A DNA stretch of 63,846 nt, the filler included, from Kipferlia bialata (lineage: Eukaryota), in the NCBI GenBank assembly GCA_003568945.1. It is 5 parts of 5 records of this genome, joined end to end, with 100 filler letters (N's around TTAATTAATTAA, not from the genome) between each part and the next. Parts side by side here need not be neighbours in the genome. Positions count along the whole stretch, not along the records: positions 47,462 to 59,984 come from BDIP01000499.1; 4 more parts are not named here. One strand, given 5' to 3'. The stretch's first letter is position 1, and each line of letters begins with the position of its first letter. Positions 9,101 through 63,696 of this stretch are shown here, one piece after another. The notes below the pieces were generated by a model. It made no database searches, was not told the origin of the DNA, and worked only from the letters and a program-made list of their open reading frames with translations. Position numbers and translations under genes: made by a program.

Positions 9101-12100
9101 CTTGACAAGTATCGGACTACCTCAGGTATGCAAAAGGACCAGACCCAGCCTCCAACAGGCCACATCCGTTGGGCAGGCGCTCTGGTCCAGTGGTAAGGAA
9201 GAGCGTGGTGCCCCGTGTACGTGCCTTGGTAGTTACACCGCTGAGGTAGTCTGAGATGTCGGCCGTGAGTGTCTCGGTGGGCACTGCTGCCAGGTGGTAC
9301 AGACTACCAGTGACTAGCTGCTCAGAGGTGGATAGGTACTCCTCACAGCCTATCCCCTCATGGCCTGGGGTGTCTATAGCCCCACACTGCACACACACAG
9401 AGTGGTGGCAGGAGTCACAGCTCTGGTACCCATCAGACTTGGACAGGATGTTGTGGCAGTCAGGTACCACACACATCCCAAGTGGCATGGAGCCTGCCTT
9501 CAGGTGCTTGGCTGCCAGTCTGGATGCGTACTCCTCATACTCAACGGGAGACAGAGACCCCTTCAGGTCCTTGATGTATGCAGTCTCGTGGCACTTGGCA
9601 CAGGTGATAGGCTGGGAGGTGGGGTCTTCCAGTGACACCATGCACTGTTTGACCATGCACCCTTTGCAGAATGGGTGGCCGCACAGGTATAGAGAGTCGT
9701 CAGCCTCTCCGTGGCAGTACACACACCTCCTGTCACACTCCAAGTGCCCTGCTCTCTTCAGAAAGTTGACCAGCTTCTGCTGGACGACACGCATCTCTGT
9801 CTGCTGGGACTCAAAGGAAATGTCACTAACGGCCTCTCCGTTGGATCCACTGTTGGCCAGTATATTCTCTCTGCACTGAGGGAGAGAATACATGTACGTC
9901 AGGATGTTGCGCCTGTTGTCGTCGTACTCTAGACGGCCCAGATGCAGTAGGGACCCACTGTTGATGGAGTCGATGAGCTGGTCTCCCGAGGCACCCTTGC
10001 GTCTGAAGAGCAGTGCTGCCTCAGTACTGAGCTCGATAGTCTGGACTCTAGGCTGGTACTCCTTGGCGGTGTGGGTGTGGATCCTGTTGACAAGTGCGTC
10101 ATAGGTGCCTCTGTCGCAGTAGAACTTGACCCCCTTGATGCGGTTACCAGATCGGTATAGGACCTCCCTGCCGGCACCTCTCTCCCTGCACCATTGGGCT
10201 AACAGGCCATCTCTGTCTGCCTTCAAATCATCCTTGAACAGAACCTCACGGCGTCTCCCGAACACCGCATAGTAGTGAGGAGTTGTCAGCTTAGTCAGCT
10301 CTGCAGCGGCCATGCCACACACACTGGGCACACCAGATATCACAAGGCACGTGGTGTGTACGCCTGAGTCTGTCATGTCAGCCTGAGTGCTGACCCTGAC
10401 TCCCTGGAGACCCAGCTGACTGTACTTGTCGTATACAGTCTGAGCCATCTCATCCAGAGGGTAGCAGTCTGCATGCTTGACCAATACACTGCAGTCGGTA
10501 TGTGATGTATCGGGGTGGCACTGTGTGTATCGATCAGCGTCAGCTGCCGAAGGGAACACAACACTGTAGATGTTGGCAATAGAACCAGTGAGTGCCTCTC
10601 CAGTACTAGTGGTACTCTCAGTGGGAAGTGAACCGCGTAGTGCTGTGGCAGCATTGCTGCAGTCTAGGGTATTGTCGAAGCAGAGGGTAGCTGATGTGGA
10701 CCCATCTGTCTCCGACAGAGTGACATACACAGGGGTGGAGTCACATGCTCTGAGGACATCTGCGTCCTTGGTGCTGCTGGGCATGTCTCGGATGACTATG
10801 CTGGGGACATCAATGACCTCCAAGGCAGTGTATCCCTCACTCGATATGCTCTCTCTCAGTGTGGATATGTCCTGTGCCTGGATGTGCAGTGTAGTGCCCA
10901 GCCTCTGTGACGCAGAGAGGCTGCCAGCGCTCATCTCTGCCTTGGGGTTGGGGACACAGGCACGGGCGGTAGCGGCAGCTGCCTCGTTGCGGAAGTGCAC
11001 CACCCCAGAGACAACCCTGCCCCCCTCTCTAAACAGGGTCCCATACTTCATGTCAGTCTTTGGATCCAGCCTAGCCAGCTTGCAGAGCCACAGGGCCAGG
11101 CTGCGGTCTGACCTTGTCTCTGGGGGCACCCTGTCTACAGTGACGCACAGAGGGTCGTCGGTGGTGGTGACGGCCCTAACCACCCCACCTCCCAGTATCA
11201 CTACGCTGTACTCACCAGCCCCCTCTCCCAGGACTACCCTGTCCTCGTACTCCCTGTAGTTCTCACGCCAGGCACGAACCACACCCACGGCTCTGCGACG
11301 AATGTCGGCACCGCAGTTTGCAGGGGCGTGGATGGCGACTGTACTGGCGTCCAGGTCATGGACCACAACTGCGTGGTACTTGTACTTGGACCTCCGGAGA
11401 ACCCTCTCCAGCTCCAACACAACGGAGCGGCCGACGTTCTTGGCTGTGAAACACACCTCTGTGTTGAGGGTCTGTGCCTTGATCCAGTCCTGCTTCTCAT
11501 AGGAGAGCCATGCTGGGTGTAGGGGGTGGGACATCGCGGCACGTAGCCACCCGTCCTTCTTGGATACGGGGGCGTCGAGGGAGAGAGCCACAAAGAGGGA
11601 GTCTGTGTCCCCGGTGTAGCAGAGCTGTGACTCAGGGGACAGGACACGCATAGTGCCAGATCCGTGGAGCATGTAGACACGAACTGCATCAGCAGAGGGC
11701 ATCATCTTCTGACCTATGTGCTGTGGGTAGGCATAGGCCAGACACCTGCCTATGACCTCTAGCTGATGGGGTGTGTAGTCTGTGGAGACAGCAAGACTCT
11801 GAACATGATCCGTTGACTCCACAGGCTCCCTCTCAGCCACGACCGGGGATGATAACACACTCACCAGTGCCGTACGGGCTGAAGCAAGAACTGTGTGGTC
11901 AAGTCCTGCCTCCTCTGCATACTTGTGTCTACACTGATCACAACCCAAGTGTGACAAGGGATCATCAGACACCACCAGCCCACAGTCACACTTGCCCCCA
12001 GTCAACATGCCTGTGGACAGCCACTCCCTGTATGCCTGGTGGTAAGACTGACTGACCATCTTCTTATCTCAGACTGGAATACACAATGAATGCAGTTATA

Positions 12101-15545: not shown

Positions 15546-16107
15546 CTATCCAGTTCCTCCTGCCTCTGTCTGTATGACATGGGTGCAGATGGGGGTAGGG
15601 GGTGGGCAGTGATGGGCCTGGCACGGCGGAGGTAGGTGTCAGTCACTTGCCTAGTATGTTAGACAATATCCATAAGACATATATACGTCATATATTCATA
15701 GGTGTCGGTCACGTGCCTAATGGAAGAGTGGTATATGTTTATCACTTCATGAACACTGTATCTAAAACAGATATATATACCTCCCCGGCTCCTGCGTAAC
15801 AGCTGGAGTGTGTGTTATGGGTCAAATATACATATACGAGGCTGCTCATTACTCTTACTATGACATATATACTATCACACTCTGTACCTCCCCGGCTCCT
15901 GTCTGACTGCCGGTGTGTGTGTCATGGGCCTCTGACCAGACACACCCCGGGCAGTGCCAGGTCTGGAGCCTTAAGGTGAGATGTATGAATGACCCAGTAC
16001 AATATTGAGAGAGCTGGCCACTGCCAGGTGTCTAACAACAAAACGATAGAATATATACCTGCGGTTATGGGTCTGTGCTGCAGTCTGGCCTTGTCCAAAG
16101 GGTATGT

Positions 16108-16144
<37 letters not shown>

Positions 16145-17994
16145 TAAAGAGACAGGTACAAACCTGCCGTTATGGGTCTGTGCTGCAGTCTGGCCTTGGC
16201 TGTACTGGCCCTGGACCCACCCCTGGACCTGGAGGGCATGATGCCACCTAGTCCAGCACCTAGAGGTAAGGGAGAGGTATTTATATATACTGGAGAGAAA
16301 GGGGGGGGGGGGGATGTGGACCTGGAGGGCATGATGCCACCCAGACCGGCGCCTGAAGGTTAATGCATATACATACATACATACACATGGATATATATAT
16401 AGAGAGAGAAACAGAGAGAGATAGAGGGCATGATGCCACCCAGACCGGCGCCTAGAGGTCAATACGTACACATATACATACATATACTAGTAGATATGTA
16501 AGTGAGTGAGAGAGAGAATCTGGAGGGCATGATGCAAGGGAGAGATAATGACACAAACACTAAGGTATACATACTGGTTTTAACATACACTTATCAGTTA
16601 TGTCCTACCTAGCTCACTGAGTTCACTGTCACTCCCCTATATGAACTATATATATACATATACTAGGGTATGTAGTATATGTAGTATACATGTATATCCA
16701 TACCTAGCTCACTGAGCTCACTGTCACTGCCCTCGTCCTGGATGAAGTCGTCATCATCATCCATGACACCTGAGAGTGAATATGGAGAGAGAGAGAGAGT
16801 ATACGTAGTATATAGTGTGTAATACAGCATATATTATATATTACCTAATTCAGCGAGCTCTGCCTCGTACTCATCGTACAAGAGGTATATACTACACCAT
16901 ATATACATATAGGTATGTATATATATACTGAACTATACCTAGCTCAGCCAGCTCTGCCTCGTACTCATCGTACTGGGGGGACTTGGGGGTCTCCTTGGCC
17001 TAAGAGTCAGAGATATAAACTCACAATACTGTAATACAATTGAATATTATATAGAAACAAAACCGCAATGGTGTTTATGTTGTCTGCTCATCATAGACAT
17101 CCTCAGATATGTATATCATTACAATAGATATATACATACATATATGTACATATATGTATATATATGTATAGTTTACGTGTATACACACCTTTGGCATCTT
17201 TGCTGTCTGCTCATCGTATGCATCCTCATCGTCATGGGGGATGGGGGCAGTCACAGGCCTTGAGGTTAGTACATGCAAATATACACTAGCATATAGGAGG
17301 GTATACATTCGTATTGTATAGGAGTGTGAATATTACATGCATCCTCATCGTCATGGGGGATGGAGGCAGTCAGAGGCCAAGAGGTAAGTATTGGTATTTG
17401 TAAATACAGTATATATGCTCAGACACACAGATATACACAGTATACTGTGGTGATACCTATAATCGAATCCTCCTGCCACCCTCACCACCCTCCTGGGTAT
17501 CCTGTTAAATTCTTAATACATATATTCATTATAGAATATCCTACTAATAATATAATGTTTACCTGTAGTCAAACCCCCCTGCCACCCTGACCACCCTCCT
17601 GGGTATCCTGTTGTGGCTGGTCTCCACTAGGGGTCTGCCTGAAGGGTGAGACACATATACACACATATATACATGTATAGAGAGAGAGAGACAGACAGAG
17701 ATACTGGTGTGGCTGGTCTCAACTAGGGGCCTCCCTGGGTGAGAGTGGGTAAATATAGGTGTATGTGAATGTATGCATATATATATATCATGTGTGAAGA
17801 CACATAGGTTCACAAAGAGTCACTCAATTTGGAGTGTAGTAGTGACAATCACCTGCATTGCCTGGCTTCCTGTATCTAACATTTGGGGACTATATGGCAT
17901 ATATATACATATACATACACACGTATCTCTATTCTTATACTCACCTGCATTGCCTGGCTTCTTGCCCCTCTGACCCTGGGCAGCAGTATCCATC
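15546..17994 (-). CDS. Internal exons of a low-complexity protein of unknown function (recurrent RPITA/RPVTA/RPGTA motifs, acidic stretches)
   Basis: Phase-compatible short exons, e.g. GRPLVETSHNRIPRRVVRVAGGFDYR, PVTAPIPHDDEDAYDEQ, AKETPKSPQYDEYEAELAEL, KARLQHRPITAG. Confidence 0.65.
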
Positions 17995-18025: not shown

Positions 18026-18125
18026 NNNNNNNNNNNNNNNNNNNNNNNNNNNNNNNNNNNNNNNNNNNNTTAATTAATTAANNNNNNNNNNNNNNNNNNN
18101 NNNNNNNNNNNNNNNNNNNNNNNNN
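18026..18125. other. Artificial contig linker N44-TTAATTAATTAA-N44
   Basis: Six-frame-stop spacer, repeated identically four times in the window. Confidence 0.98.
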
Positions 18126-18230
18126 CACCTATGGGACAAGGCAAAACACTTGTCCAAAATATGAAATGCAAACAGTGTCCAGATCAAGCCCCACACACAC
18201 ATATATGTACGGATGAACCTGATCGTACAC

Positions 18231-35801
<17,571 letters not shown>

Positions 35802-36140
35802 CTGGGGGTGAGACCAACACTGAGATATATATATATATATAAGTATTGTTGGGAACTGGGAGGTATGTCTGGAACCAGAGGCACTGGGGGTGAGGTCACA
35901 CATATACTATATAGGAAGAGAGATCGACACAACGAGGAGAATACTAGAGGGTCTGTCTGGAACAAGAGGCACTGGGGGTGAGGGAGACAGAGAGACCGGG
36001 GGGGGGGGGGGGAGGAAGCAAGAGAGTACTGATGCAAGGGAGAGAGTATCATAGACACTTGGAAGAAGTCTGAGACAAGAGTAAACATTCGAAGCGAGGG
36101 AAGGGGGGGGGGGGGGGGGGGGGTCTCCCCTTTTGGGGAC

Positions 36141-36240
36141 NNNNNNNNNNNNNNNNNNNNNNNNNNNNNNNNNNNNNNNNNNNNTTAATTAATTAANNNN
36201 NNNNNNNNNNNNNNNNNNNNNNNNNNNNNNNNNNNNNNNN
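36141..36240. other. Artificial contig linker
   Basis: N44-TTAATTAATTAA-N44. Confidence 0.98.
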
Positions 36241-47361: not shown

Positions 47362-47461
47362 NNNNNNNNNNNNNNNNNNNNNNNNNNNNNNNNNNNNNNN
47401 NNNNNTTAATTAATTAANNNNNNNNNNNNNNNNNNNNNNNNNNNNNNNNNNNNNNNNNNNN
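47362..47461. other. Artificial contig linker
   Basis: N44-TTAATTAATTAA-N44. Confidence 0.98.
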
Positions 47462-47671: not shown

Positions 47672-49230
47672 TCACAGGCCCTGAAACAGGGAGGGACTAT
47701 TCACAGTAGAATTGTCATCGTTTGAGTACCTCCCTACAGCCATGCCCCTCCGTCTTTCCATGAGTGCCGCAGGTGGGTTCCACCTCACAGGGGCAGGAGG
47801 GGTGAGGGTAGTGTCCTCCCAGAGGCCTGGGGTCAGAAGCATAGTAATTGTCGCAATCCTGTATATGCATATGTGGTATATATATGGTGGTTCTACCATA
47901 TATGATAGAGACTATTTGATAGTAGGGTCGTGTCCTCCCAGAGGCCTGGTGTCAGAACGATGGTAACTCAATCATGTAAAGGTATATGTGGTGGCTCTAC
48001 CATTCTGGTTACCTTCTGATAGTGATTCTTTGACAGTGGAGACGCTTCACTAAGACAAAGCCATGTACAACTTGATGGATCATATTCAGTTAGCATTACC
48101 TCTCAGTGTGAACCTCCCCTCTCCTGTCACCCAGAAAGCATCCGACACAACCCCATACACCCCAGTAGACCTCACTCTCGGGCCTCCCTCGCACGTCCCC
48201 TCCTTCCACTCTGCCACGTCTGGGTCAAACAGGGCATATCTAGTGGCAGTAGGCCCTGGTTCTGTGGCAGCAACCTGAGCCTCCAGCATACTTCTAGTGA
48301 TATGATAGTGCCCTTGCCGTCTGAGTTTCCTTACCAGCTCTTCAGAGGCAGTGGAAGCTGGCATCTCTCCCAGACGCACGAGTACTCCATCTGACAGTCA
48401 GCGCGCTAGGTATTCGTTCGGTTACAACGATGATAGCGGGAGACAAGAAAGCCAGAAATGATTCCATTCCTTCACTATACCTAGCAAAGCAAATGAGTAT
48501 CTCTAGGAGAGTCCTAGTAGAAGTACAGGAATAGCATTCTTTCCTGGCACAAAGTCATAGACACAATACCAACGACAAGGCAAGACACTACTAGCAAAAG
48601 TTCATGAGTCCTTGCATTACCTAGCACAAATGAGTACACACAGTCCCACTGAGGAAGCCCCGGCACAGCGGTGATGCCCAGAGTGGCAAGGTCAAGTAAA
48701 CAGAGGGTGGGGTTGGGGTGCTCCTCTTCTGGGATCTCCCTCTCCCTCTCCCCCTCCTGCTCCATACCAGTTGCGGTGTACACTCTCTCGTGGTGGGGTA
48801 GATGAGAACTGAAGTGAACAGAGAGTGCAAATGATTTGACAGGAGAGAGTGTCTGAGTCTGGACGAAGTATCATGGGCATTATGATACAATACCTATGAC
48901 AAAAGTAGTATTGCTTTAAAGTCCACAGTCACGCGCGCAAATATACTCAGAACAGAAAGGCGGTGTCAGCAGAAGTACATGCTTCCTACCTCTTCAGCAC
49001 CATGTACACCCTGTCCCCCACTTGCCCTATGCACCTTGACAGCTTGTACCCACTGGGCAGAGCCACTCTCTGCACTGTCTCTACCACTGAGAGGTCCGGT
49101 GCAACAGTCACCACACTCAGACAGTTGACAATGTCAACTTGACATACACCCTGTCCCCCTTCTCCCTGATCTGCTCTTCACTGAGCCCCCCTATAGTGGC
49201 ACGATACCTCATCGCATATTGGTTCCCATC
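47672..49230 (-). CDS. Multi-exon hypothetical protein or decayed gene
   Basis: Coding-like exons (PTLCLLDLATLGITAVPGL; RYALFDPDVAEWKEG) with splice signals. Not fully reconstructed. Confidence 0.35.
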
Positions 49231-50248
49231 GATAGGGACCCTATCATAGGGCCGGTCTCTGTCACTAGTCGACGAGATGCAGGTCGGAGCGAACACATAT
49301 CGACTCTTGAGTCTGGTGATACAGTTGGGTGGACGAAGAGAAACTGGTAGGGTCCTGAGGTTAGTATGGTTTGTGTTGAGGTTAGTTTGGTATATGGAGT
49401 GTTAGAATCTAACAGAATCTGACAGAATATTACTTTGCTTTCAGTGAGTTTACTAATCACATATCAGGATCAGAGATTCTCGCTTACGAGGAGGCTAAAT
49501 GGGTGGTACATGTATTAGTGGTACCGGGCACATGAGTGGTATCAGTATCAGTATCAGAATCAGTATCGGTTAGTATGGTTGATGGTAATGTTAGTATGGT
49601 ATGTGGATTCTTTGATATACCTAGCACTGCCACTGGTATTGCTAGCAGTAGCTCTCTGTGTGCACATGGGTGTCTCCTACCAATAGGCTTTCAAAAATAT
49701 AGAGTAATGCCGTATTCTATATAGAATAACGATTATTCTATATAGAAATGGGGTCTATATCCCATTGGGAAGTTCCCCATGTGCACTGCTGTCTTGACAG
49801 GTGGGACACAGAGGCCGTTCCAAGGAATGTTCATCACCTTGTTCAATGTGAACATGGGGTTTCTGGCGTGATGGCACCACTGACGTCATTCCAGAGTAGA
49901 CAGCATATATGTTCTACACATCCGGATAGTTATAGACGATGTTACTTGCGCTATACTACATACGTACCTAGTGAAGCCAACACTGACGCTATTCCGGAGT
50001 ATATATACTACACCAGTGCATATACGTATATACCGATATAACAAAACTACTATACTATGTCACATAGTAACTATGTGACATTGTCACACATATTATGCAA
50101 GGTATTCTGTACGGTCAATCATACATTGACTCAATGAATCAGACATGATTGGAACATGGCTTCCATTGAGGTTATTGAATGGTGATATAGTACAACACAC
50201 CTCGTTGGCTTTGCTACCGTGGTCACTGTAAGTGGTAAACCACCCCTC

Positions 50249-51068
50249 TAGGTGATAGCCACCCTCTGGTGAGTATCTAGGCGAGCATAGACCACACCCA
50301 CATACCAGGGTGGATGGGTTGTATGCTTAGGTCAAGATAGGGTCAAGTGGTGATGGAGTGTAAAACTACAATAACAATACTACACAATGATATCGGTGGC
50401 TCTATATTTGTACAATATTCATTATACATCCCATATGTCGAGGATATGGAAGATACAGTAATGTGGCAACTACTTACTTCTGTCTGGATGCTCTATCCAC
50501 GTTATCCCTGTGCGTCTACGCATCTCTTTGAGCAGCGCATCTAGGGTCTCACATCTCAACTCCCACAGACCGGGAGGGAGACCTGGAGGATAAGGACCAA
50601 GCACATAGGTCCTCCCATAACACATACATATGCATAGACTATACTGGATACTTTACATATGCGCTTGTACACACCCTGTATTAACACACGTAGATACCTG
50701 AACTTGGTCTGTATGACTTTTACACATCCTTACTATGTCCGAACTGTTAGACTTATATACCTGAACTGGGTCTGTATGGCCCTGGTCCTCCCATCACACA
50801 AACACACATATATATAGTATACTGTATACTATTCTTTATACACACATACACTCTTGCTATGTCCGAATTGTTGGAGTTAGATACCTGAGCTGGGTCTGTA
50901 TGGCCCTGGTCCTCCCTTCACACATACATATGCATAGAGTATACTGTATATTATACATATGCACCTATACACACACCCTTACTATGTCTGATGTATACCT
51001 GAGCTGGGTCTGTATGGCCCCGGTCCTCCCTTGTGGTAGTGGTACAGGTACTTCCGAGAGTCGATCAT
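50249..51068 (-). CDS. Small spliced gene of unknown function starting MIDSRKYLYHYHKGGPGPYRPSSG/LPPGLWELRCETLDALLKEMRRR
   Basis: ATG at 51068 after an in-frame stop. The phase-1 donor at 50998 joins the only open frame of the exon at about 50478-50582. The 3' end is uncertain. Confidence 0.5.
50608..51030. repeat. Tandem array of exon 3' end + donor + intron head (spacings 114, 124 and 63 bp)
   Basis: ACCTGA(G/A)CT(G/T)GGTCTGTATG with the exonic part starting at 50999, 50885, 50761 and 50698, and similar intronic sequence between copies. Confidence 0.9.
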
Positions 51069-51547
51069 TGGAAGATGTGGCAGTTAATAAGAGATACAGA
51101 GAGACAGTGTGGTTGAAGCCCTCTAGACTACAATCCTTCAACTTGAGGGTCTCAAGAATCGGAGAATCGGAGAAGGGATTGACCAATAGAGAATCTCCTA
51201 ATTGTGAAGAAGTCTCAATTAAGCTTACCCAAGGCATTGTTAGCAATGCTGTCATAGCATCGTCTGAAAGAGAAACAAGAATACAGATGTGATAAGTACC
51301 ACAGCCGTAGAATTTATGCAAAAGACTGAGTCATATATGCTATATAATGAGTCAGTTTCCATGACCGATTCGATCGGTATGTCCAGCAGATACCAGTGAC
51401 AGGAAAAGACTCAAAGCAACGTGTGTTGAGTCAAATCTATTTGACAATGTCGCATGACCCACGAGTGACATATCAACCCTTGTCACACACACATTACATG
51501 AACTGCTCCATCCACTCGTTGCCTGTCACGAGACCTGTGCTGCACAC

Positions 51548-53373
51548 TATGTAGGTGTGGCCCTCCTTCTCCCCAAGGTGACGGAAGGCGGCAACCTCAC
51601 TCCTGGTGACACCGCCCTGCTGTCAGCTATGGCGTAATATTTGAATTATAGACTATCACAATACACACACACACAAATGGAAAGAGAATATTTGCATATA
51701 TACCCATATATATATATATATATATGCAGGTGTGCTGAGTACGTACCACAATGAACACCACACTGGCTGTCTGATCCCCGTAGGCGTCTCTCTCTCCCCT
51801 GGGCCTAGACGCCTCTCTCCCACTCTCGCTATCCTTCTCAGAGAAGCCACGGCTAGCACCCTGGTGGTCAATTAAAGTCAAACAGAGTCATTAATAGTCA
51901 ATATGGGTACCTTGAGTCCCTTGAGAAGTCTCCTGACCTCCCCCCTCTCCTTGAGGAATGAGGTGATGCCACTGGCAATGTTGTCCTGTAGTGAGAAAAG
52001 GGGGAAGAGAGAGAGAGAGAGAGACAGAGACAGAGATGGGAGGAAGTATATAGAGAAAATGTATAATTTCAAAAGAGAGAAAACATTTACATATGTATAT
52101 ATATATACCTTGAGGTTCTCGCTATCTCTGGTCCTCTCTCTCTCGAGGTCTCTCTCCCTCCCTCTCTCCAGCTCATGCATGGCAGACACAACCCTGGGAA
52201 TAAGGGTCTAGACGGAGAGAGAAAGTAAGGGTGCAGATGGGGAGAGAAGGCCACCAAATGAATACCTGGTCGTCATGGGTGCACACACATATATAGACGT
52301 ATACATTTATGCTCAAAACATATATACACATACTATTGTAAAAAGTATAATGTACACTAATAATCATTGTATGTTATACACTACTATATATACCTTGTTG
52401 TCATGGGTGCGTAGTGGCTGTACACACACATATATATATATTAATATATGAATATATATTCTCCATACATTATATATGTATAGTATATATATATATATAC
52501 CTTGTTGTCATGGGTGCATAGTGGCTGTAGACGTATCCCTCGCCCTTGGGCTTAGAACTGGACCCATCCCCTGGGGTCAGTATATACGAATTCACATTGA
52601 ATATTGTCTGGCCTCGTAAACATAAATGCCCACATCGTGTATATGATACATAATATATCTATACACAAATATATTATTGCAGAGACTAAACATTCTGCAC
52701 TCACCCTCTGAGATTGCTGCCACGTAGTCGTACTTGGTCAGGTGGTAGTGCCTCCTGGGGGTAAGGGAGGGGAAATGGTATATGTATATACATAAATACA
52801 TATGTATATACATATATATACATGTATATAATACTATGTGTGTTAAAACAAGGAGTTAAGTCAGGTGGTAGTGTCTCCTGGGGGTAAGGGAGAGAGAAAG
52901 AAAGGGGGAGAGAGAGGGAGAGAGAGAGAGAGTGGTAGTGCCTCCTGGGGGAAGATGGTAATTGAGACTATATTTCAGAAAAGAGAGAGTAACGACAGTC
53001 GCTGAATCCAGTGACATTATGACACCAAAGCAATAAAATATAGTCATATACTAATTACTTACTAACTCAGACAGACCATACAATACCCTATCCTACCTAG
53101 TCTGGTCCCACTTGTCCCCATAGCCAAGGGGGGGCACGGGGATCCTGAGGGTAAGGATACTAGTGCATAGAGATACGAGTATATATATATATATATGAAG
53201 AGTCCAGGGGCACAGGGATCCTGGGGGTGGGAATACTTCCATACTCGTATTATCCTATGTACAGAGATAATGGGTGGGGGATCCTGAGGCTCAGAATACT
53301 ACCATATTTATATATATCCTATGTAAAGAGATAATGGGTGGGGGAGACAAATAGGGAGAAGAGAGAGAGGGGG

Positions 53374-53408
<35 letters not shown>

Positions 53409-55096
53409 CTACCTGGAGTCCTGCAGGCTCAGCAGGCCAGCAATCTCAAGGTTCCTGAGGTGAGGGCTTGTGTGGAATGAACAGAACAGAAAAGTATAGT
53501 ATACTGAACAAATAGTCCAATTCGCTGTACCTGAGGGCACTTGCTACTGATGCCCCATAGCATGACACTACTAGACCCACGGCACGCTGCATGGTCTTCC
53601 TGTCAAGGCCTCCATCCACGACAGACAGGAGGCAGAGGGCCCTGGTATTAGAGGAAACGACACACAATAGTCAATATATACAGACGAATATATATATATA
53701 TATTGTGACGTATATCTAGGCCTCCATCCACCACAGACAGGAGGCAGAGGGCCCTGGGCGTTAGTATACACATACATGACATAATAATACACATATGTAT
53801 ACATAGACAGAGAGAGAAAGAGAGAGGATATCTAGGCCATCATCTACTAGCAGACAGAGGGCCCAGGATATGATAAAGCAGGACGGATCAATTAAAACAC
53901 TGGTACACAACTTCACATGTATATATATATATATACTACATACCTTAGCACTCTAGCCTTGTGCTTGGGTGACATGGTGGGGTTGGTCTCATCCTCTCTC
54001 TCTCTCCCTCTCTCTCTCAATATATATATACATATAAACATACATATATTCTATAAAATACCTCAGCACCCGAGCCTTGTGCTTGGGTGACATGCTCGGG
54101 TTGGTCTCGTCTGCCATACAGGCCTGGATCACATCCTCCAGTCTATCAATGTACTTGTTGCCCTGGGGTTAGCATTTTAACAACCTAGTAACAATAATTA
54201 CAGTGCAGTCAGATTGTAAATCACTCTCTAATCTGTACAATGTACTTGTTTCCCTGGGATTCGCATGTCACCAACTGAGTAAATACATAACACATATATC
54301 TGTATACACGATCCCAATACCTTCTTCTCCCCCTTCAGCAGGATCGATGACTCGTACTTGTGCAGTGCGGGCAGGAGGGCATCCTTCTTGACAAGCTTCA
54401 GGATGTCCCTGACAAAGGAGGCAAAGTTAGTAAGAACCTTGGATCAGATACATATAGACAAAGAGAGAGAGAGAGAGAGAGAAGGATGTCTCTGACAAAG
54501 GAGGCAAAGTTGGTAAGGACCTACAGTAAGAGCAAGAGAGAGAAAAGGATGCCCCCAAATGACCGAAGGAATAACAGGTAACGTCTTTAGAGTAGACACA
54601 CAGAGAGCGAACTATCGTTCTCATAATAGTAGTACATACCTGCACGTGTATCCTGCTGATCAGCCTCTGCTGTCCCTGCTGGGCAGATGAGGTCTCGAGG
54701 TCATTCTCCAGGCCCTGGGGGTTAGCTGCACTATATGACTCGCGCTCATATGTATCACATTATGATATGACAAAAATCTCTGAATCTCGCTCTATAGGGT
54801 CATTCTCCATATCCCCTGGGTGCAAGAAGTGTCATTGATAGCAAAGACAAAAGGAATGACGACTATTCCGCCATTATATCCACTAACCTGCACCCTCTTG
54901 AGTATGGCAAAGTATGGGTCGAGGAATACAACTATAACGAGGATTCAAAATAGTATATTAAGAGTTGGAAACATATATATCTATATCTCTCTATATACTC
55001 CCACCTGCACCCTTTTGAGTATGGCAAAGTAGGGGTCGAGGTCAAGGAAGTGGTTGTCCTGGGGTGAGATGACATATATACACATACATACATATA

Positions 55097-55135
<39 letters not shown>

Positions 55136-56949
55136 ATATATAACATATATATAAATATGTACAACAAACAACAGTATATATATGTGTATGTGCACTTGTA
55201 TGTGTATGTGTCTAGGTGGTTGTCCTGGGGTGAGACGACATAATAAGGCTAACTATAAATACATTTGAATGAAAATGTTGATATAAACTCATACCTGTAA
55301 GCTGTAGAAGACATACTACTCTCCTGCGTGCTTTCATAATCACAACAACACAAGTATCCAAAGATCTCGTAAATCCATACCTGAATGCTGTGGAAGATGG
55401 GGTTGTTGTTGTTGATGCAGCAGGAACGGGTCTTGTCAGCAGAGACCTGGGGTGTCAGAAGGGAGATACACACACATAAACACATATATATATCCATAGA
55501 GAGAGAGAGAGAGGGAGATAGGAAGGAACGGGTCTTCTCAGCAGAGACCTGGGGGGGAGGAAGGGAGAGAGATACGTGGACACGATACAGGGAATAGGAG
55601 GCACCAAGAGAGAGAGAGAGAGAGAGAGAGGGTGTGTGTGTACCTGCAGGTGACACATGGAGTGTGCACAGTTGGCAAGGGACAGGTCATGCAGAACACC
55701 TGGGGTAAAGGGGGGTAGAGAGAGAGAGAGAGAGACAGGTCATGACCTATGTCTTACTATTTACACTTCTCTGCCTCCTACCTCTGATTGTGTCCTCTGT
55801 GTGCAGAATGGCCTACCTTCTCTCACATACACACACACAGTCTCTCTCTCATTCTATATGTCTCACTATATATATATATATATCTGCCTGATACCTGTGA
55901 TTGTGTTCTCTGTGTGCAGCATGGACACAGGATCAAGGGCCCTGAAATAAGGGGTGTAGAGACAGAGAGCATACAATATACATTGAATAGTTGGAGGGTA
56001 AAGGCAAGGAGTCCGGGACCCCGTACATATGTATAAATTTGAATATACACATATTAATATATCTATATATATAATCATATATCCAAATATATATACATGC
56101 CCACCTGTCCACGATGTACAGGTCGATGCCGCTGCCCTCCATCTCTCTCTCCCTGCTCTCGGCAGAACCAGAGTCACTGGTGTAAGGGTGTAGATTGGAG
56201 GGAGAGAGATAGAGACACTCGGCAGAACTAGAGTCACTGGTGTAAGGGTGAAGAGGGAGGAAGAGAGAGAGATAGAGATTCCTCCGCACACATCGTACAG
56301 TGTGGCGGTTTATATAATGTGAAGGCCAAAACACTAATATTTGAACACACTGGATATTACTCATATAACCATACACATGCCCCTGGCTTCTGTGTACACA
56401 TGGTGCAGTTAAGATAGTGAATATAGTATGATTTACGATAAATATGAATATATACAACATGAATATATACGATGAGAGAGATGAGTAAGAAATATAAATA
56501 ACACATATACATACCCCTTGGCCTCTGTGTACACATCGTGTAGCTTCGATGCAATGTCACCCTTGGCCATCACTCTGTCGAAGCCTGGGGTGGGTAAAGG
56601 GTGTAGGGGGAGAGAGAGAGCCTCAGACAACAACTACGTGTGTCTAGGTACTTCCGTCGATGTATCTCTCTAACTGTCTGAGGCCCAGGGCACTGTGAAT
56701 GTGTGTATATATATATTAATATTCATATATATATATCATATATACATATATACCTCCATCAATGTATGGGGTATATATATAAATATACCTCTTTTCACAC
56801 ACATACTTATATTTAGACATGAATGTAAAATATATATACCTCCGTCGATGTATCTCTCTAACTGTCTGAGGCCCAGGGCACTGCTGTAGAGGGAAGAGGT
56901 GTTGGTGTCGGTGGCAATCTAGGATGACGGGTGGGTAATAGTGAGAGAT

Positions 56950-57000
<51 letters not shown>

Positions 57001-59811
57001 ACTGCTGTAGAGGGAGGAGGTGTTGGTGTCGGTGGCAATCTGGTACGTGAGTAAAAGTAATATTTAGCTTGAATACATATATGCAATTACAGAGTCCCAG
57101 ATGGAGGAGCAACACACCACTGTAGCAAATATATACGGACCTCCCTCCATGTCATGTGCTATGAAGGGGGCATCCCACATATACACTTTATATATACACC
57201 ACTAGTAAATATATATACATAGACCAGGTATATACCTCCCTCCACACTGTAGTGCCCATCTCCAGCACATCTCTGTCATGTGCTATGAAGGGGGCATCCC
57301 ACACAGCCACTCTAGGGCCACTGCCTGCAAGGTGGTCGGAGACACGCTGCTGGGATGAGATATACTAATATGTATATATATGGAGAGAGAGAGAGAGAGA
57401 GAGGACCTGCATAGTGGTCGGAGACACGCTGCTGGGATAAGAAGTGTACTATCTTCCGTGTATCTATATATAGGGAGAGACGTGCGAATATAGTGAGAGA
57501 GAACGGCTGCCAGGTGGTCGGAGACACGCTGCTGGGATAAGAGGTGAATATATATACATATGCATTGGCTGTGAGAGAAATACAGCATGGGGCCACTGCC
57601 AATATATACATATTTATGTACATGCACTCACCCCGTAGTACTCTGGCACGTACTGGATGAAGACTACCAGCCAGTCAGCCTCAACGTCGCAGATGGACTG
57701 GGGTCAGATACATTGATAGCGGCAAAGATGAAAATGTAACCAGAGAGTATATATATAAATATCTTCCATACAATGCTTGGTTATATAATTATGACAGCCA
57801 GTCAGCCTCAACGTCGCAGATGGACTGAAGTTAGACACATAGATATATAGAGAGAGAATACAGAACTAGCAGCCACAGGTGGACTGAAGTGAGAAGCTCC
57901 ACAATTGAGAAATAGTATGGGAGACTAGACCTCAAAGAATACTTCACATTGACTAATGTACTATAAAAAGCAATATACCACGAATTGTGACAGTGTATTA
58001 TTCACTGATGTCTGTCTATAGATAAGGAGAGAGAGATGACCTCCATCTCCGTGAAGCACTGTATGAGGCAAATATTGTTATGAAAACAGAGAGTGCATAC
58101 ATCTTGTATTCAATATACTTGATATATATATACCTCCATCTCCGTGAAGCACTGTGTGATACACAAGTACCCAAAGAGAAAGAGTTCAAAATGGTATAAC
58201 AATTTACATGTCAATATATATATCATAAGATGATGTATATATCTTTATATATATACAATATATATATATACCTCCATCTCCGTGAAGCACTGTATGAGCT
58301 TGGACACGTTCTCCCAGGTGGGTCTGAGGACAAATATCTGGGAATGAGGGTGTAGCGAAAGAGAGAGAGAGAGGCAGAGAGACAGAGCCTACCAGGTGGG
58401 TCTAAGGACAAATATCAGGAAATAAGGGTGTAGAGAGAGAGAGAGAGAGAGATGTAAATACATACCTTCTTCTTGACGTTCTTGGCAGCTAGTGGAACGC
58501 TGAAGGTGCCTCTGATGCCTGAGGGTCAGAGAGAGAGAGAGAGTAACAAGAACATAGAGGAAATACCCCGAAGTGGCATTCTAGGATACCGACAGTCACC
58601 ACACTCCCAGTCAATGAGTGTACATATAGCATACGTAAACATATTATTGTATACCCGTCTCGCTTCTGAACACCGGCCATCCTGGGGCAAGGTTGGTGGG
58701 GATCTCAGTGGCCCTGGCGTTAGGAATAATAATAAAGACCATACTATACTATGATATGTGATATACTCCATTAGACCCGTACTACTGTCAATGCATCACT
58801 ACCTCTGGCTGTCCCAGAAGTATAGCAGGCCCAGTGAAATGGGGAAACACATAAAGATACAACCATACATACTGCTGTATAACACACACTCTCTCTATAT
58901 ATATACAACCATACCTCTGACTGTTCCAGAAGTATGGCAGGCCCAGTGCAATGTGGGCAGAGAGGGAGGGGTCAAAGTAGAAGGCGGTGTTCTGGGGTAA
59001 GAGAGAGAGAAAGAGAGAGAGGGAGGTCAAATCGAAAGACAAGAGTGTTCTGAGGTTTGTCATTAATACATAAAAGAACACAGTACTGATACAATCACTG
59101 CTGAAAGGGGATTCCATTACCCTATACCATAGTGTATCAACATAGCACCCACCGTGAATGTGAACACTGTGCCCTGGTACCCCTTGAGACGCTGATAACG
59201 CTGGGGGACGTCCTAGGTGTTAGTTCTTTGTGATTCGAGGAGAGAGAGAGAGACAGAGAGAAAGTAAGCGAGATAGCGATGGTAGACATCCTTGGCAAAC
59301 TATACCGTGATGCATGGAGGATATGCAAACAAAATGCCATTCAAAGCTAATGTAAATAGTCTCTATACACTGTACCTTGGACACTATGTCTGTGAACTGG
59401 TTCAGTGCATCGGTGCGGTACCTGGGGGTAGGGGAGAGGGGGGGGGGGAGTATATAAGACACAATGTGTCCATATAAATATACAACTACTATATATACCT
59501 ACCATAGAGTACACCCATACCTGTCTGCCAGTGATACAGTGCTATGGAGACTACATCACACAATCAGTACATGATATTATGTACCTATCTATTCCTATGA
59601 CACTGTCTGCCAGGTAGGGCTGTCTCTTGCCAGCATGGTGGAAGGTGTCCTAGGGTAAGGGAGAGACAGAGGGGGAGAGAGGGAGAGACAGAGGGAGAGG
59701 GGATAAGGAGGGATGATCCCTGTACATCATAGTGGAAGGTGTCCTAGGGTAAATACATAATTATTTGTATGATACAGAGTGAGAGAGATTGTAGGTATGG
59801 TGGAAGGTGTC
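51548..59811 (-). CDS. Large multi-exon protein of unknown function; 5' end missing
   Basis: Phase-compatible exon chains, e.g. ATEIPTNLAPGWPVFRSETG/IRGTFSVPLAAKNVKKK/IFVLRPTWENVSKLIQCFTEME and DNHFLDLDPYFAILKRVQ/GLENDLE../VLTNFASFVRDILKLVKKD. Confidence 0.7.
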
Positions 59812-59984: not shown

Positions 59985-60084
59985 NNNNNNNNNNNNNNNN
60001 NNNNNNNNNNNNNNNNNNNNNNNNNNNNTTAATTAATTAANNNNNNNNNNNNNNNNNNNNNNNNNNNNNNNNNNNNNNNNNNNN
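59985..60084. other. Artificial contig linker
   Basis: N44-TTAATTAATTAA-N44. Confidence 0.98.
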
Positions 60085-63000
60085 CATGAGCTGTGTCTGT
60101 CTTCACTCTCTCTCTATATATATATATACACATATATATGCATACACTAACCTCTGCCTGGCCACTGCCATGAGCTGTGTCTGTGCCCCCCCCCCCTCCC
60201 TTTCTCTCTCTCTCTCTATAAATATATATATCATTATATATATACTATATATATACCTCTGCCTGGCCACTGCCATGAGCTGTGTCTGTGCTCTCTCTCT
60301 CCCCCTCTCTCTCTCAATATATAAATTCAATATGCACTACTGACCTCTGCCTAGCCACTGCCATGAGTTGTGTCTGTGTGGCCGGTCTGCCACCCTGGCC
60401 CATCACAGACGGCATGGGCACACCAAGGGCCTTGTTGTAAGTGAGGCATGTATATATGTAAATATACATATAGAGGCAGAGAGAGAGAGACATACAGAGA
60501 GACAGAGAGACAGAGAGAGGGATGGTGACAGAGAGGGCACAATCTTACCTGTAGAGGGTGGACCTTCTTGCCCTGCTTCTTGGCCTCAGACATATATATA
60601 CACACACTATATTATATATCATATATACATATATATATGTTATACATATATACTATACCTGCAGTGGGTGGATCTTCTTGCCCTGCCTCTTGGCCTCGGC
60701 TATCTCGGCATCCCGCTGCAGCTTGATCTGGTGGTTAGACATCATATACACTGCTGATATAGTATACAATATGAAGTATTAAATAGTACACATATCTCGG
60801 CATCCCGCTGCAGCTTGAACTGGGGGGTGAGACACCCCATATTCGTATAGTATATGATATATATAGCCTATCAGATGCAGTAAATAGAATACAGTACAAT
60901 GTATACACCACCCGATTCACTAACATACCTTGTAGTCGGATGTCTCCATGAAGGCCCGTCCCACAGCACATACTTACACTATATATACTATACTATGATA
61001 TATCTATGATATGTATAATCTTATATATATATAGTGTGTGTATGTGTATATCCATATATGCATACCTTGTAGTCGGGTGTCTCCATGAGGGCCAGTCCCA
61101 CGGCTGCCTTCCTGAGGGCACCCACATCATTGGTGCCATCGCCACACATGAGGGGGGCCATGCCTGGTATTTGATATGTATATATACGCTAATATGGGGT
61201 GGGGGAGAAAAAGAGAGAGTTGACGCCAAATAGTATAGATAGATACTATAGTAGGGGGCCCATGCCTAGGGGTTAGAGGGAATGTATATGTGTACAGATA
61301 TATATATATATATATATATATATACGTATACCTGCATCTGCGAGCACTGCCACCACAGCAGCCTTGTACGGGGTATAAACACATATATTCACCCAACCAT
61401 AGATTCATACATCTATCTATATATATATCATATATCTATGTATATACATGTACATACACACCTGCATCAGCGAGCACTGCCACCACGGCTGCCTTGTTGT
61501 CGGGGGAGCACCTGGCAATGACCTGTGGGTAAGAGAGAGAGGAAGAGAGAGAGGGAGAGAGAGATAGATATTCACAACCAAGATGGCAGCATGCAACATC
61601 ATGTATATATGAATACCATACCTTGAGCAGGGGTGTCACGAGTGTGGCCAGGGCTGGGATCTCAAGGAGCTCGTCAAGCTTGTTGCCTGATGGTAAGGGA
61701 TAGTCCAAGGCTATAGAACTAACACCCACATATATATAGTATATCATACTATACTTCATCATGCACCTGATGCACACAGTGCCATCTCCCTGATGTCTGG
61801 CAGTGTCTGCCCAGGTGTGATAGTATACATGCATATACATATATATATATATATATATATACTATACCTGATGCGCATAGGGCCATCTCCCTGATATCAG
61901 GCAGTGCCTGTCCAGGTGTGATGGGCAGAGTGGCAGGGGGCACACTAGAGACACCAGGCTGCTCAGCATAGAGGGGCTCAAACACAGCACAGGGAGGGGT
62001 GGGTTTGGACTGTCATCAGCAACCGCGTAGAATAGGAGGATCGCGTAGAATAGGGGAATCGCGTAGAATACGTACCTTCTTGTCTGCAGGGTCTGCTGGG
62101 GCACCTGGAGTGACAGAGGCGAGGCGCATGACGGCCCTGCCCTTGGCAACAATGGCACTCTTCCTACACGATAAGGAGGGGTATCGCGTAATTGTGATAA
62201 TGAATATGCTATATAATGTATATATACCTGGCAACAGCTGCTGCTGTGTGCAGGTTGTCCCCTGTGATCATATATATATATATATATATATACTACATAT
62301 ACTACTACACCAATATAGTAATATACTACTACACCAATATAGTATATGTTGTATACCTGGCTACAGCTGCTGCTGTGTGGAGGTTGTCCCCTGTGATCAT
62401 GATATATATATATATATATACATATATACTACTAAATACACTACCATGCCAGTATAGTATATGTTGTATACCTTGCCACAGCAGCAGCTGTGTGGAGGTT
62501 GTCCCCTGTGATCATGATGCACCTGTGGCCACTGGACTTGAGGGACAGGATGGTCTTCCTGGAGGTAAGTCATCATCTATATCAATATACATATATACAT
62601 AACCACTATGATACTATAGGTTCTATATACACTGGACTTGAGGGACAGGATGGTCTTCCTGAGGGTCAGTGTACAAGATATATATATATCAATAATATAC
62701 CGCACTATGCATACGCAATATACACACCGCCATGTCATCTCTCTCTCTATATATATTATTATACATATACCTAGTGTCTGTCTTCAAGGGACTGTCACTC
62801 AGCATCAGTCCGGCAAAGACTATATTAACCTATACAACACATAAATACCTGATATATACTATGCATACTACATACATACTACATACATATATACCTAGTG
62901 TCTGTCTTGAGTGGACTGTCACTCAGCATGAGTCCGGCAAAGACTATATATATACAAACAACATAACTACTTCATAATATATGTATATTCTATATACTAT

Positions 63001-63696
63001 ATAGTATATACTATATATACCTAGTGTCTGTCTTGAGTGGACTGTCACTCAGCATCAGTCCGGCAAAGACTAGGTCCTTCTCAACCTCACTCCTCTTCTT
63101 GGTGCGGATGACGGCAGATCTGACGGTGAGACTAACTTGTCACTAATCGAGTAGAGTCTTGTCACACACCGTGTACCACTCACCCTGATGACAGGTCTGT
63201 CTGTCCACCCAGTCTATCTTACTTGTCACACAGTATAATGCAGTTAATATATAACGTGTAGCACTCACCCTGATGACAGGTCTGTCTGTCCTCCCAGTCT
63301 GCGGTAGGCAAGGGCAATCACCCTGTAGCCCTGTCTGGAATGGTCAGATATGAAGAAAACACCCATACATACCAAAATTATGATAGATAACAAAACAGTA
63401 ACTCTGAAGCCGTGTCTGGAGGGGTCAGAGAGAAGCCGACAAGGATGATATAGTATATCAAGAAAGATGATTGACATTTTCAGAGGGTATATATTTTCCT
63501 GGTAGCCTTGGACAGCTCTGCCTCGACCCACTCTGACACACAATAAGAGACAATATAGAAGGTATATATAGATAGGAAAGGTAGATATAACTAACCTGGT
63601 AGCCTTTGACAGCTCTGCCTCGACCCACTCTGGTGTCTCAGTGCACATGGTGGAGATGACCTCTGGTGCTCCCTGATTATTAATGTATATTCACTC

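What the first reader, a model, noticed from the sequence alone, without database searches (positions are those of the whole stretch)
50608..51068. A young echo array in which the intron part is still alignable
Seen: the 3' end of exon 1 plus donor plus up to about 85 nt of intron is repeated four times in tandem, with a fifth remnant near 50608. In the frame fixed by the next exon (GGPGPYRPSSG) the exonic differences are CCG/CCA, AGC/AGT and CCC/CCA (silent), plus one Pro/Ser change at the edge of the shortest copy. Inference: this shows the unit of the process (exon end + splice site + intron flank) and suggests it recurs at one boundary, with the intronic part diverging faster afterwards.
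Basis: partly seen in the sequence, partly recalled or inferred. Interest (0 to 1): 0.7.

Follow-up and report, generated by a model that had tools for sequence, protein, structure and literature searches.

The report
Silent-coded exon-end echoes inside introns
In this free-living anaerobic protist the end of an exon with its splice signal is copied three more times into the next intron, as at about four in ten exon borders of three neighbouring genes, and because the untranslated copies differ from the exon mostly at silent codon positions they are likely pieces of other, highly diverged alleles left behind by recombination, which would be a genomic trace of sex in a group where it has not been seen.

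Summary
The array is real: four donors (50998, 50884, 50760, 50697; minus strand) lie in one read-derived contig at single-copy depth. 'Young' is wrong: intron parts differ by 16-33%; the 'fifth copy' is only 9 nt. The array is one case of a window-wide pattern: 42 echoes at 35 of 88 exon borders of three modelled genes, on donor and acceptor sides (null 1/4230). Differences are 77 silent to 27 replacement, pN/pS 0.11 (0.06-0.20), below the 0.5 expected if copies simply decayed in the intron. An RNA contig of the neighbouring gene skips its echoes. Best reading (0.55): units come from diverged alleles, joined by homologous recombination in the exon and microhomology exit in the intron. A green-algal locus shows the same anatomy but pN/pS 0.38-0.49. 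The scan noted similar exon-end copies in other genomes before. Closest known: splice-junction minisatellites (F7 IVS7). No second strain was available to test.

The parts
50999..51068 (-). Exon 1 (ATG at 51068) of a multi-exon Kipferlia-family hypothetical gene; its last 34 nt are the template of the echoes
   Evidence: aligns to paralogue P0002 in this frame
50917..50998 (-). True donor and intron part I1 (82 nt)
50885..50918 (-). Echo 1 of the exon end (34 nt, one silent difference), followed by pseudo-donor at 50884
50793..50884 (-). Intron part I2 (92 nt)
50761..50792 (-). Echo 2 (32 nt, two silent differences), pseudo-donor at 50760
50716..50760 (-). Short intron part I3 (45 nt); its junction to echo 3 lies at a 6-nt word (ATACAG) present both in the exon end and in I1 and I2
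   Evidence: reading of the junction is inference
50698..50715 (-). Echo 3 (18 nt, two silent differences; Pro/Ser change just outside, at the junction), pseudo-donor at 50697
50617..50697 (-). Intron part I4 (81 nt)
50608..50616 (-).
   Evidence: a match of 9 nt or more to exon 1 occurs in 1 of 44 other introns
50583..50607 (-). Intron tail with branch-like motif and acceptor AG ending at 50583
50478..50582 (-). Exon 2; next intron 50477-50326, exon 3 from 50325; tblastn matches to the paralogue continue to about 48610
51494..59649 (-). Vps33/Sec1-family gene, 28-exon model, 686 aa open; 21 echoes at 17 of 54 borders; RNA contig follows the model
60345..63672 (-). P5-type ATPase gene (partial), 11-exon model identical to public protein P0001 over 304 of 304 aa; 11 echoes at 9 of 20 borders
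15546..17994 (-). Unnamed 8-exon gene piece (frame from an open splice path only); 10 echoes at 9 of 14 borders

Best explanation
The array is a head-to-tail duplication of an exon end, its donor and part of the intron, and its units are likely taken from different, strongly diverged alleles rather than copied from one molecule. Shown: the anatomy, the frame, the window-wide frequency, the silent bias, and that a neighbouring gene's RNA contig uses the outermost splice sites and skips the echoes. Inferred: alleles in the population differ at about a fifth of silent sites and more in introns, so short exons are the main pairing surface. A break in or near an exon end is repaired on the other allele; synthesis runs through the donor into that allele's intron, and the strand leaves at a few bases of microhomology (polymerase-theta-type joining) or, once an echo exists, by unequal pairing of echo with exon end. 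The new exon end stays next to the exon; the displaced one is left in the intron with its own intron flank. An equivalent route is plain slippage followed by repeated exchange with other alleles. Only products that keep a whole exon and at least about 40 nt of intron beside the working site survive; the spliceosome defines the shortest exon, so the copies are silent, and they decay or are deleted soon (pN only 0.026).
For: 77 silent: 27 replacement differences, 79 of 104 at codon position 3, in 42 echoes at 35 of 88 borders; neutral decay rejected (P 1e-21 with transition bias), 'snapshot' model (exon changes silently, copy decays freely, pN/pS about 0.5) rejected (P 1e-9); cluster bootstrap 0.057-0.20; stays 0.095-0.174 over five detection settings including unanchored, looser ones. 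Echo versus echo 12 silent: 4 replacement (P 2e-5). Silent changes are symmetric (27 GC-to-AT, 25 AT-to-GC), as between alleles. In this array intron parts differ pairwise by 0.16-0.33, about equal to pS, and the pattern is a mosaic: I2 and I3 are closest in the 5' part, I1 and I4 in the 3' part. pS and pN are not positively linked across echoes (rho -0.31, P 0.049); multi-copy borders have fewer replacement changes (3/339 versus 24/716, P 0.02). Both junction types in this array sit on short words shared by exon and intron. RNA contig: four consecutive exon pieces join directly across four echoes with 0 other letters, although the echoes of three of these exons differ at 2-6 sites. Literature: metamonads lack Ku/DNA-PKcs and fornicates lack Rad51A but have two Dmc1; K. 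bialata has PolQ, Spo11 and Hap2 (PMC8516963, section 8 and supplement rows); its genome was judged diploid from k-mers (PMC5874029).
Against: No second allele or strain was seen: run X1 shows no other letters over 50000-55000 and the metagenome scan found no close relative (best segments 25-62% identity among 80 loci kept of 332), so silent diversity of 0.2 between alleles is assumed, not measured. The same anatomy and unit length (median 108 versus 106 nt) occurs in algal locus L076 with pN/pS 0.38-0.49, which the simple snapshot model fits: the duplication step does not need diverged alleles. Distal echoes carry fewer, not more, replacement changes (0 in 158 sites), against a simple 'farther is older' order. 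XPF and ERCC1 are present in K. bialata, so a missing flap nuclease is not the cause. Sex has not been observed in metamonads (PMC8516963). A BEACH-domain gene with about 50 introns in the same window has almost no echoes, which this model does not explain. Three genes from one window only.
Confidence: 0.55

Rival explanations
1. Plain same-molecule slippage or repair duplications; each echo is a snapshot of the exon at the time of copying and then decays neutrally, while the exon changes only silently.
For: Known process; fits L076 (37:53 unanchored, expected share 0.41, P 0.52) and some window echoes with only replacement changes (for example 1:4, 0:3). In this array neighbouring units differ by one silent change each, like a ladder.
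Against: Predicts pN/pS near 0.5; observed 0.11, P 1e-9 to 1e-13. Needs silent exon sites to change about eight times faster than the same sequence in the intron while the adjoining intron DNA changes as fast as silent sites.
Confidence: 0.13
2. The echoes are under direct selection because they are sometimes used as coding sequence, by a non-canonical RNA or DNA swap between the direct repeats that puts the echo in place of the exon end.
For: Explains the silent bias, including in distal copies (15:0), and the retention of GT/AG in 42 of 47 echoes.
Against: The only RNA contig laid carries the exon-side sequence and skips echoes (contigs drop rare variants). Using any pseudo-donor of this array by ordinary splicing gives a stop after codon 28. 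AG is not enriched at the start of donor-side echoes (10 of 24, 8.3 expected). Many echoes hold replacement changes; no benefit is evident from swapping synonymous copies; no joint skipping a unit was listed for the DNA run (11 joints not shown).
Confidence: 0.13
3. The diverged partner was not a population allele but a homeologous or paralogous gene copy (old hybrid or long-asexual diploid) that was later lost or converted.
For: Gives the same silent bias without ongoing sex; the species was judged diploid; paralogous families exist (P0002).
Against: Four mutually diverged intron versions in one array need more than two donors; no second copy of the Vps33-like exons was listed at 90% likeness; the known paralogue of this gene is far more diverged (66% amino-acid identity) than the echoes.
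Confidence: 0.14
4. Assembly artefact: alleles or mis-joined reads placed in tandem.
For: Draft assembly with linker gaps; X1 may be the source reads.
Against: An independent de Bruijn contig crosses the whole array without difference at the depth of its neighbours; copies differ from each other; junctions are unique sequence.
Confidence: 0.03

Closest known systems
Minisatellites whose first monomer spans an exon-intron border: human F7 IVS7 37-bp VNTR, CBS intron 13, LMNB2, PDGF intron 4, 6-16 gene (PMC1557585, abstract and passages)
   Same: Head-to-tail units of exon end + donor + intron start; downstream pseudo-donors; the most upstream site is used.
   Different: Those are single-gene arrays of 5-25 near-identical monomers; here 1-3 unequal, diverged copies at 40% of borders, on acceptor sides too, with a codon-level constraint on the copies.
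Intron gain by tandem duplication of an exonic AG/GT proto-splice site, and internal gene duplication (PMC2891723 and PMC3443670, passages; Gao and Lynch 2009 seen only as a reference, not held)
   Same: Local tandem duplication of part of an exon that leaves exon-like sequence in an intron.
   Different: Here an existing border is duplicated; no new intron or exon arises; introns only grow (149-574 nt with echoes, 50-322 without).
Microhomology-bounded tandem duplications and template switches between diverged templates during double-strand-break repair in yeast (PMC12891019, abstract)
   Same: Short microhomology at junctions; switching onto a diverged template.
   Different: Yeast duplications lie within about 40 bp behind the 3' end and are rarer than deletions; units here are 60-188 nt, median 106; nothing is shown experimentally here.
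Same anatomy in locus L076, a Chlorellaceae-like green alga (nearest named hit Micractinium conductrix, 88% over 43 aa)
   Same: Echoes at 15-18 of 42 borders, both sides, gaps from 50 nt, median unit 108 nt.
   Different: pN/pS 0.38-0.49, significantly higher than in the window (Fisher P 0.003 and 5e-6).

Membership tests
Splice-junction minisatellite (F7 IVS7 type) | First unit spans the exon-intron border and the donor is reiterated head to tail | tested here: met
Splice-junction minisatellite (F7 IVS7 type) | Many near-identical monomers of one period | tested here: not met
   Periods 114, 124, 63; intron parts 0.16-0.33 apart
Splice-junction minisatellite (F7 IVS7 type) | Only the most upstream donor is used | tested here: inconclusive
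   True for the neighbouring Vps33-like gene's RNA contig; no RNA contig on this gene; paralogue alignment fits the upstream donor
Splice-junction minisatellite (F7 IVS7 type) | Copy number varies between individuals | not testable with these tools
   One sample only; no close relative
Intron gain by proto-splice-site duplication | A new intron forms between two copies of an exonic AG/GT | tested here: not met
   The duplicated unit contains an existing donor and intron sequence; the splice path joins exon 1 to exon 2
Tandem exon duplication with alternative use | The copy is a whole exon with both splice sites | tested here: not met
   Echoes cover 16-69% of the exon and carry one site; no AG excess at donor-echo starts
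Introner or transposon-derived intron sequence | The same element at many unrelated loci | tested here: not met
   Each echo matches only its own exon; 1 hit in 4230 foreign pairs
Microhomology-mediated repair duplication | Microhomology at the junction | tested here: inconclusive
   9-nt and 6-nt shared words at the two junction types of this array; cannot be told from microhomology-mediated deletion of longer arrays; not measurable for other echoes without the donor allele

The most novel reading that the evidence does not exclude
Kipferlia introns are a running archive of outcrossing: recombination between hyperdiverse alleles starts in the short exons and ends by microhomology in the introns, leaving the displaced exon end of another allele at about 40% of exon borders in active genes. 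One genome would then record population diversity and sex in a lineage where neither has been observed, and this tiny-intron protist would splice by exon definition, ignoring perfect inner splice sites.
Probability: 0.45. Interest if true: 0.82.

Novelty: new variant of a known kind. Interest (0 to 1): 0.66.

Why it matters
Duplicated splice junctions are known as curiosities of single genes. Here they cover a large share of exon borders and keep a protein-level signature that untranslated DNA should not keep. If the allele reading holds, it gives a way to read recombination and diversity from a single genome of an uncultivable or asexual-looking protist, ties a genome feature to the unusual repair kit of fornicates (no NHEJ, Dmc1 only, PolQ present), and explains part of intron growth. 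Either way the locus is a natural test of splice-site choice: perfect inner donors and acceptors are skipped in an organism with a reduced spliceosome (87 of 174 proteins, PMC6679479), and no echo lies closer than 41 nt to the working site. It also warns gene finders: echoes mimic exons.

Tried and rejected
No whole genome is held for this window, so the survey is limited to 64 kb. No RNA holder was listed as such; run X2 gave one spliced contig on the neighbouring gene and none on the finding's gene, which says nothing on its expression, so donor use in this array was not measured; reads were laid on 50000-55000 only. The 121-aa open frame over exon 1 (frame B) was considered and dropped: all echo differences would be replacements, codon score is lower, no Pfam hit, no alignment to the paralogue. 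A word-index search with exon 2 plus read-through found nothing and the atlas gave only scores of 0.81 or less; P0003 and P0004 are zinc-finger-like or repeat proteins and were set aside as chance. Reading exon 2 to a stop at 50470 was dropped when the paralogue showed a further intron. Mini-exon use through an AG before the echo: no enrichment. AT-biased decay as the source of third-position changes: changes are symmetric. Microsatellite content does not separate echo-bearing from echo-free introns within the three genes (131 versus 107 bases per kb) and is low in the finding's own gene, though it is low in the echo-poor BEACH gene too. My first L076 model had two boundary errors; the counts used are from the corrected model. 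Ten paper searches showed no report of gene-wide exon-end copies with silent bias in Kipferlia or Chlorellaceae; only listings were seen for most hits, subscription journals are not covered, and supplements were opened only for PMC8516963. PMC13685798 passages had nothing on this.

Full report
1. Observation. On the minus strand four donors follow a shared exon end, with the G of GT at 50998, 50884, 50760 and 50697. The exon parts of the three copies are 34, 32 and 18 nt, the intron parts 82, 92, 45 and 81 nt. The 'fifth remnant' is a 9-nt word at 50608-50616, followed by 25 nt to the acceptor at 50583. One contig of DNA run X1 covers 50000-51693 with no difference and at the depth of its neighbours, so the array is in the reads; X1 may be the window's own source.

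2. Organism and gene. An exon at 61869-62009 is identical to part of P0001, named 'P-type ATPase, subfamily V, partial [Kipferlia bialata]', and my 11-exon model equals that protein at 304 of 304 residues. The window is therefore taken as K. bialata, an intron-rich free-living fornicate (124,912 introns; PMC5874029 passages). Exon 2 of the finding's gene, searched alone, found P0002 (71% identity, E 3e-9), a K. bialata hypothetical protein. So the frame, the start and the use of the first donor are supported by homology. Function of the protein is not known (no Pfam family).

3. Not young. The intron parts are 0.16-0.33 apart with indels, and the relation is a mosaic: I2 and I3 are alike at the 5' end, while the 3' 67 nt of I4 plus junction match I1 best (87%). 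Silent divergence of the exon parts is 0.23, replacement divergence 0 in 62 sites. Two junction types occur; both lie on short words shared by exon and intron (9 nt and 6 nt). A 9-nt match to exon 1 was found in 1 of 44 other introns. A deleted fifth copy cannot be excluded.

4. The pattern is window-wide. I modelled three other genes by coordinates: the ATPase (11 exons), a Vps33/Sec1-family gene (28 exons, 686 aa open, Pfam Sec1 E 8e-5 on the last exon, below the curated cut-off) and an unnamed piece (8 exons, frame from an open splice path only). Splice-site-anchored copies of the exon end or start were found at 35 of 88 borders (42 copies; 24 donor-side, 18 acceptor-side), in 28 of 44 introns; the null gave 1 hit in 4230 foreign pairs. 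Donor-side copies lie downstream of the true donor, acceptor-side copies upstream of the true acceptor. Copies cover 16-69% of the exon; the intron stretch between working site and nearest copy is 41-144 nt (median 70), never shorter; units are 60-188 nt, median 106. A BEACH-domain gene at about 18.2-36.1 kb with roughly 50 introns (crude count) has anchored repeats only near its 5' end.

5. Splicing skips the copies. The one RNA-like contig (X2, 2220 nt) lies in pieces on the Vps33-like exons; the 8 pieces shown and their offsets match the model, including a 208-nt unshown stretch that fits four exons. Four consecutive pieces join directly across four echoes with no other letters, though three of those echoes differ from their exon at 2-6 sites. 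Contigs drop rare variants, so minor use is not excluded. Choosing the first donor and the last acceptor means the shortest exon is chosen, which is exon definition (inference). In this array any inner donor would give a stop after codon 28.

6. The key result. Echo-exon differences are 77 silent and 27 replacement (pS 0.232, pN 0.026, ratio 0.11; 79 of 104 at position 3), in each of the three genes and on both sides. Free decay predicts 24-29% silent; a snapshot model, in which the exon keeps changing silently while the copy decays, predicts 39-45% and a ratio near 0.5; observed 74% (P 1e-9 or lower). The ratio is 0.057-0.20 by bootstrap over borders and 0.095-0.174 under looser, unanchored or edge-trimmed detection. 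Adjacent echoes differ from each other at 12 silent and 4 replacement sites. Silent changes show no GC-to-AT drift (27 versus 25). Some echoes do carry only replacement changes, so the set is a mixture of fresh and decaying copies.

7. A natural control. Of 80 ATPase loci fetched from metagenomes (80 kept of 332), a donor-anchored repeat scan flagged 4: two are plain tandem repeats, one (L075) has a single echo, and L076 has them throughout. L076 is a GC-rich alga near Micractinium (model 80% identical to P0015 over 809 columns). It has copies at 15 of 42 borders (18 unanchored), with the same minimum gap and unit length, but 22:24 (37:53 unanchored) silent to replacement, ratio 0.38-0.49, which the snapshot model fits and which differs from the window (Fisher P 0.003, 5e-6). 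So the duplication process is not special to Kipferlia; the codon constraint on the copies is.

8. Mechanism. Untranslated copies can keep replacement sites only if they were working exon ends for most of the time since they split from the present exon, or are still used. The second is not seen in the RNA contig and has no known route. The first is met if the units come from different alleles. I infer that alleles differ by about 0.2 at silent sites and more in introns; that repair or crossing between them pairs in the 40-140-nt exons; that synthesis runs into the donor allele's intron and ends at microhomology, or by unequal pairing of an existing echo with the exon end (which explains shared start points in multi-copy introns); and that selection keeps only products with a whole exon and about 40 nt or more of intron beside the working site. 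Slippage followed by repeated inter-allelic exchange is an equivalent route that I cannot separate. The repair inventory fits but does not prove this: no Ku or DNA-PKcs in metamonads, no Rad51A and two Dmc1 in fornicates (PMC8516963 section 8); PolQ, Spo11, Hap2, Msh2, XPF and ERCC1 listed for K. bialata (supplement rows); sex not observed; diploid by k-mers (PMC5874029). That Dmc1 tolerates mismatches better than Rad51 is recalled, not from a call. Against: no second allele was seen or found; distal copies are not more decayed; the echo-poor BEACH gene is unexplained; the sample is three genes.

9. Comparison. Closest are splice-junction minisatellites such as F7 IVS7 (PMC1557585), shared in anatomy and in use of the upstream donor but not in copy number, homogeneity, frequency or codon signal. 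It is not intron gain by proto-splice-site duplication, not exon duplication and not an introner (membership table). Ten searches found no description of this pattern in Kipferlia or Chlorellaceae, within the limits of the library. The scan's own notes record exon-end copies in a sea-urchin gene and a case with silent differences judged near chance; the F7 lead came from there and was checked in the paper.

10. Verdict. Observation partly confirmed, interpretation partly supported. New variant of a known kind; interest 0.66, because the silent bias is strong, robust in this window, contrasts with a natural control and makes outcrossing and splice-site choice in a fornicate directly testable.

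Noticed in passing
L076:1-8384: Chlorellaceae-like algal P5A ATPase gene with exon-end echoes at 15-18 of 42 borders, two GC-AG introns, pN/pS 0.38-0.49; the same architecture in an unrelated eukaryote.
   Followed up: yes
L075:1978-2076: One donor-side exon-end echo in a GA-microsatellite intron of another ATPase locus; organism not examined.
   Followed up: no
window 18200-36100 (-): BEACH-domain gene (Pfam Beach E 1e-14) with about 50 short introns and almost no echoes except near 35640-35980, unlike its neighbours.
   Followed up: partly
window, all echo-bearing introns: No copy lies closer than 41 nt to the working splice site (50 nt in L076), and unit length centres on about 106 nt in both organisms; either a splicing filter or a length built into the duplication process.
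   Followed up: partly
window 18026-18125, 36141-36240, 47362-47461, 59985-60084: N gaps that hold a 12-nt six-frame-stop linker; pieces on either side may not be neighbours in the genome. The ATPase gene ends and the Vps33-like model begins at the last one.
   Followed up: no
window acceptor sites: Branch-like motif sits only 3-8 nt before the AG in most acceptors, and AAG acceptors occur several times; exon 2 of the finding's gene ends with A before GT.
   Followed up: no
window 47805-47992 (-): Acceptor-side echo with 73 nt still alignable including intron flank, in an unmodelled gene.
   Followed up: no
window 2547-5246 (+) and 9117-12068 (-): Long intron-free frames: a pentapeptide-repeat protein (899 aa) and an IBR/RING protein (983 aa).
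   Followed up: no
window 49138-49001 (-): The finding's gene holds an internal repeat of about 45 codons (two similar stretches ending in a GDRVY motif) that also recurs in paralogue P0002, suggesting a repeat or propeller protein.
   Followed up: no
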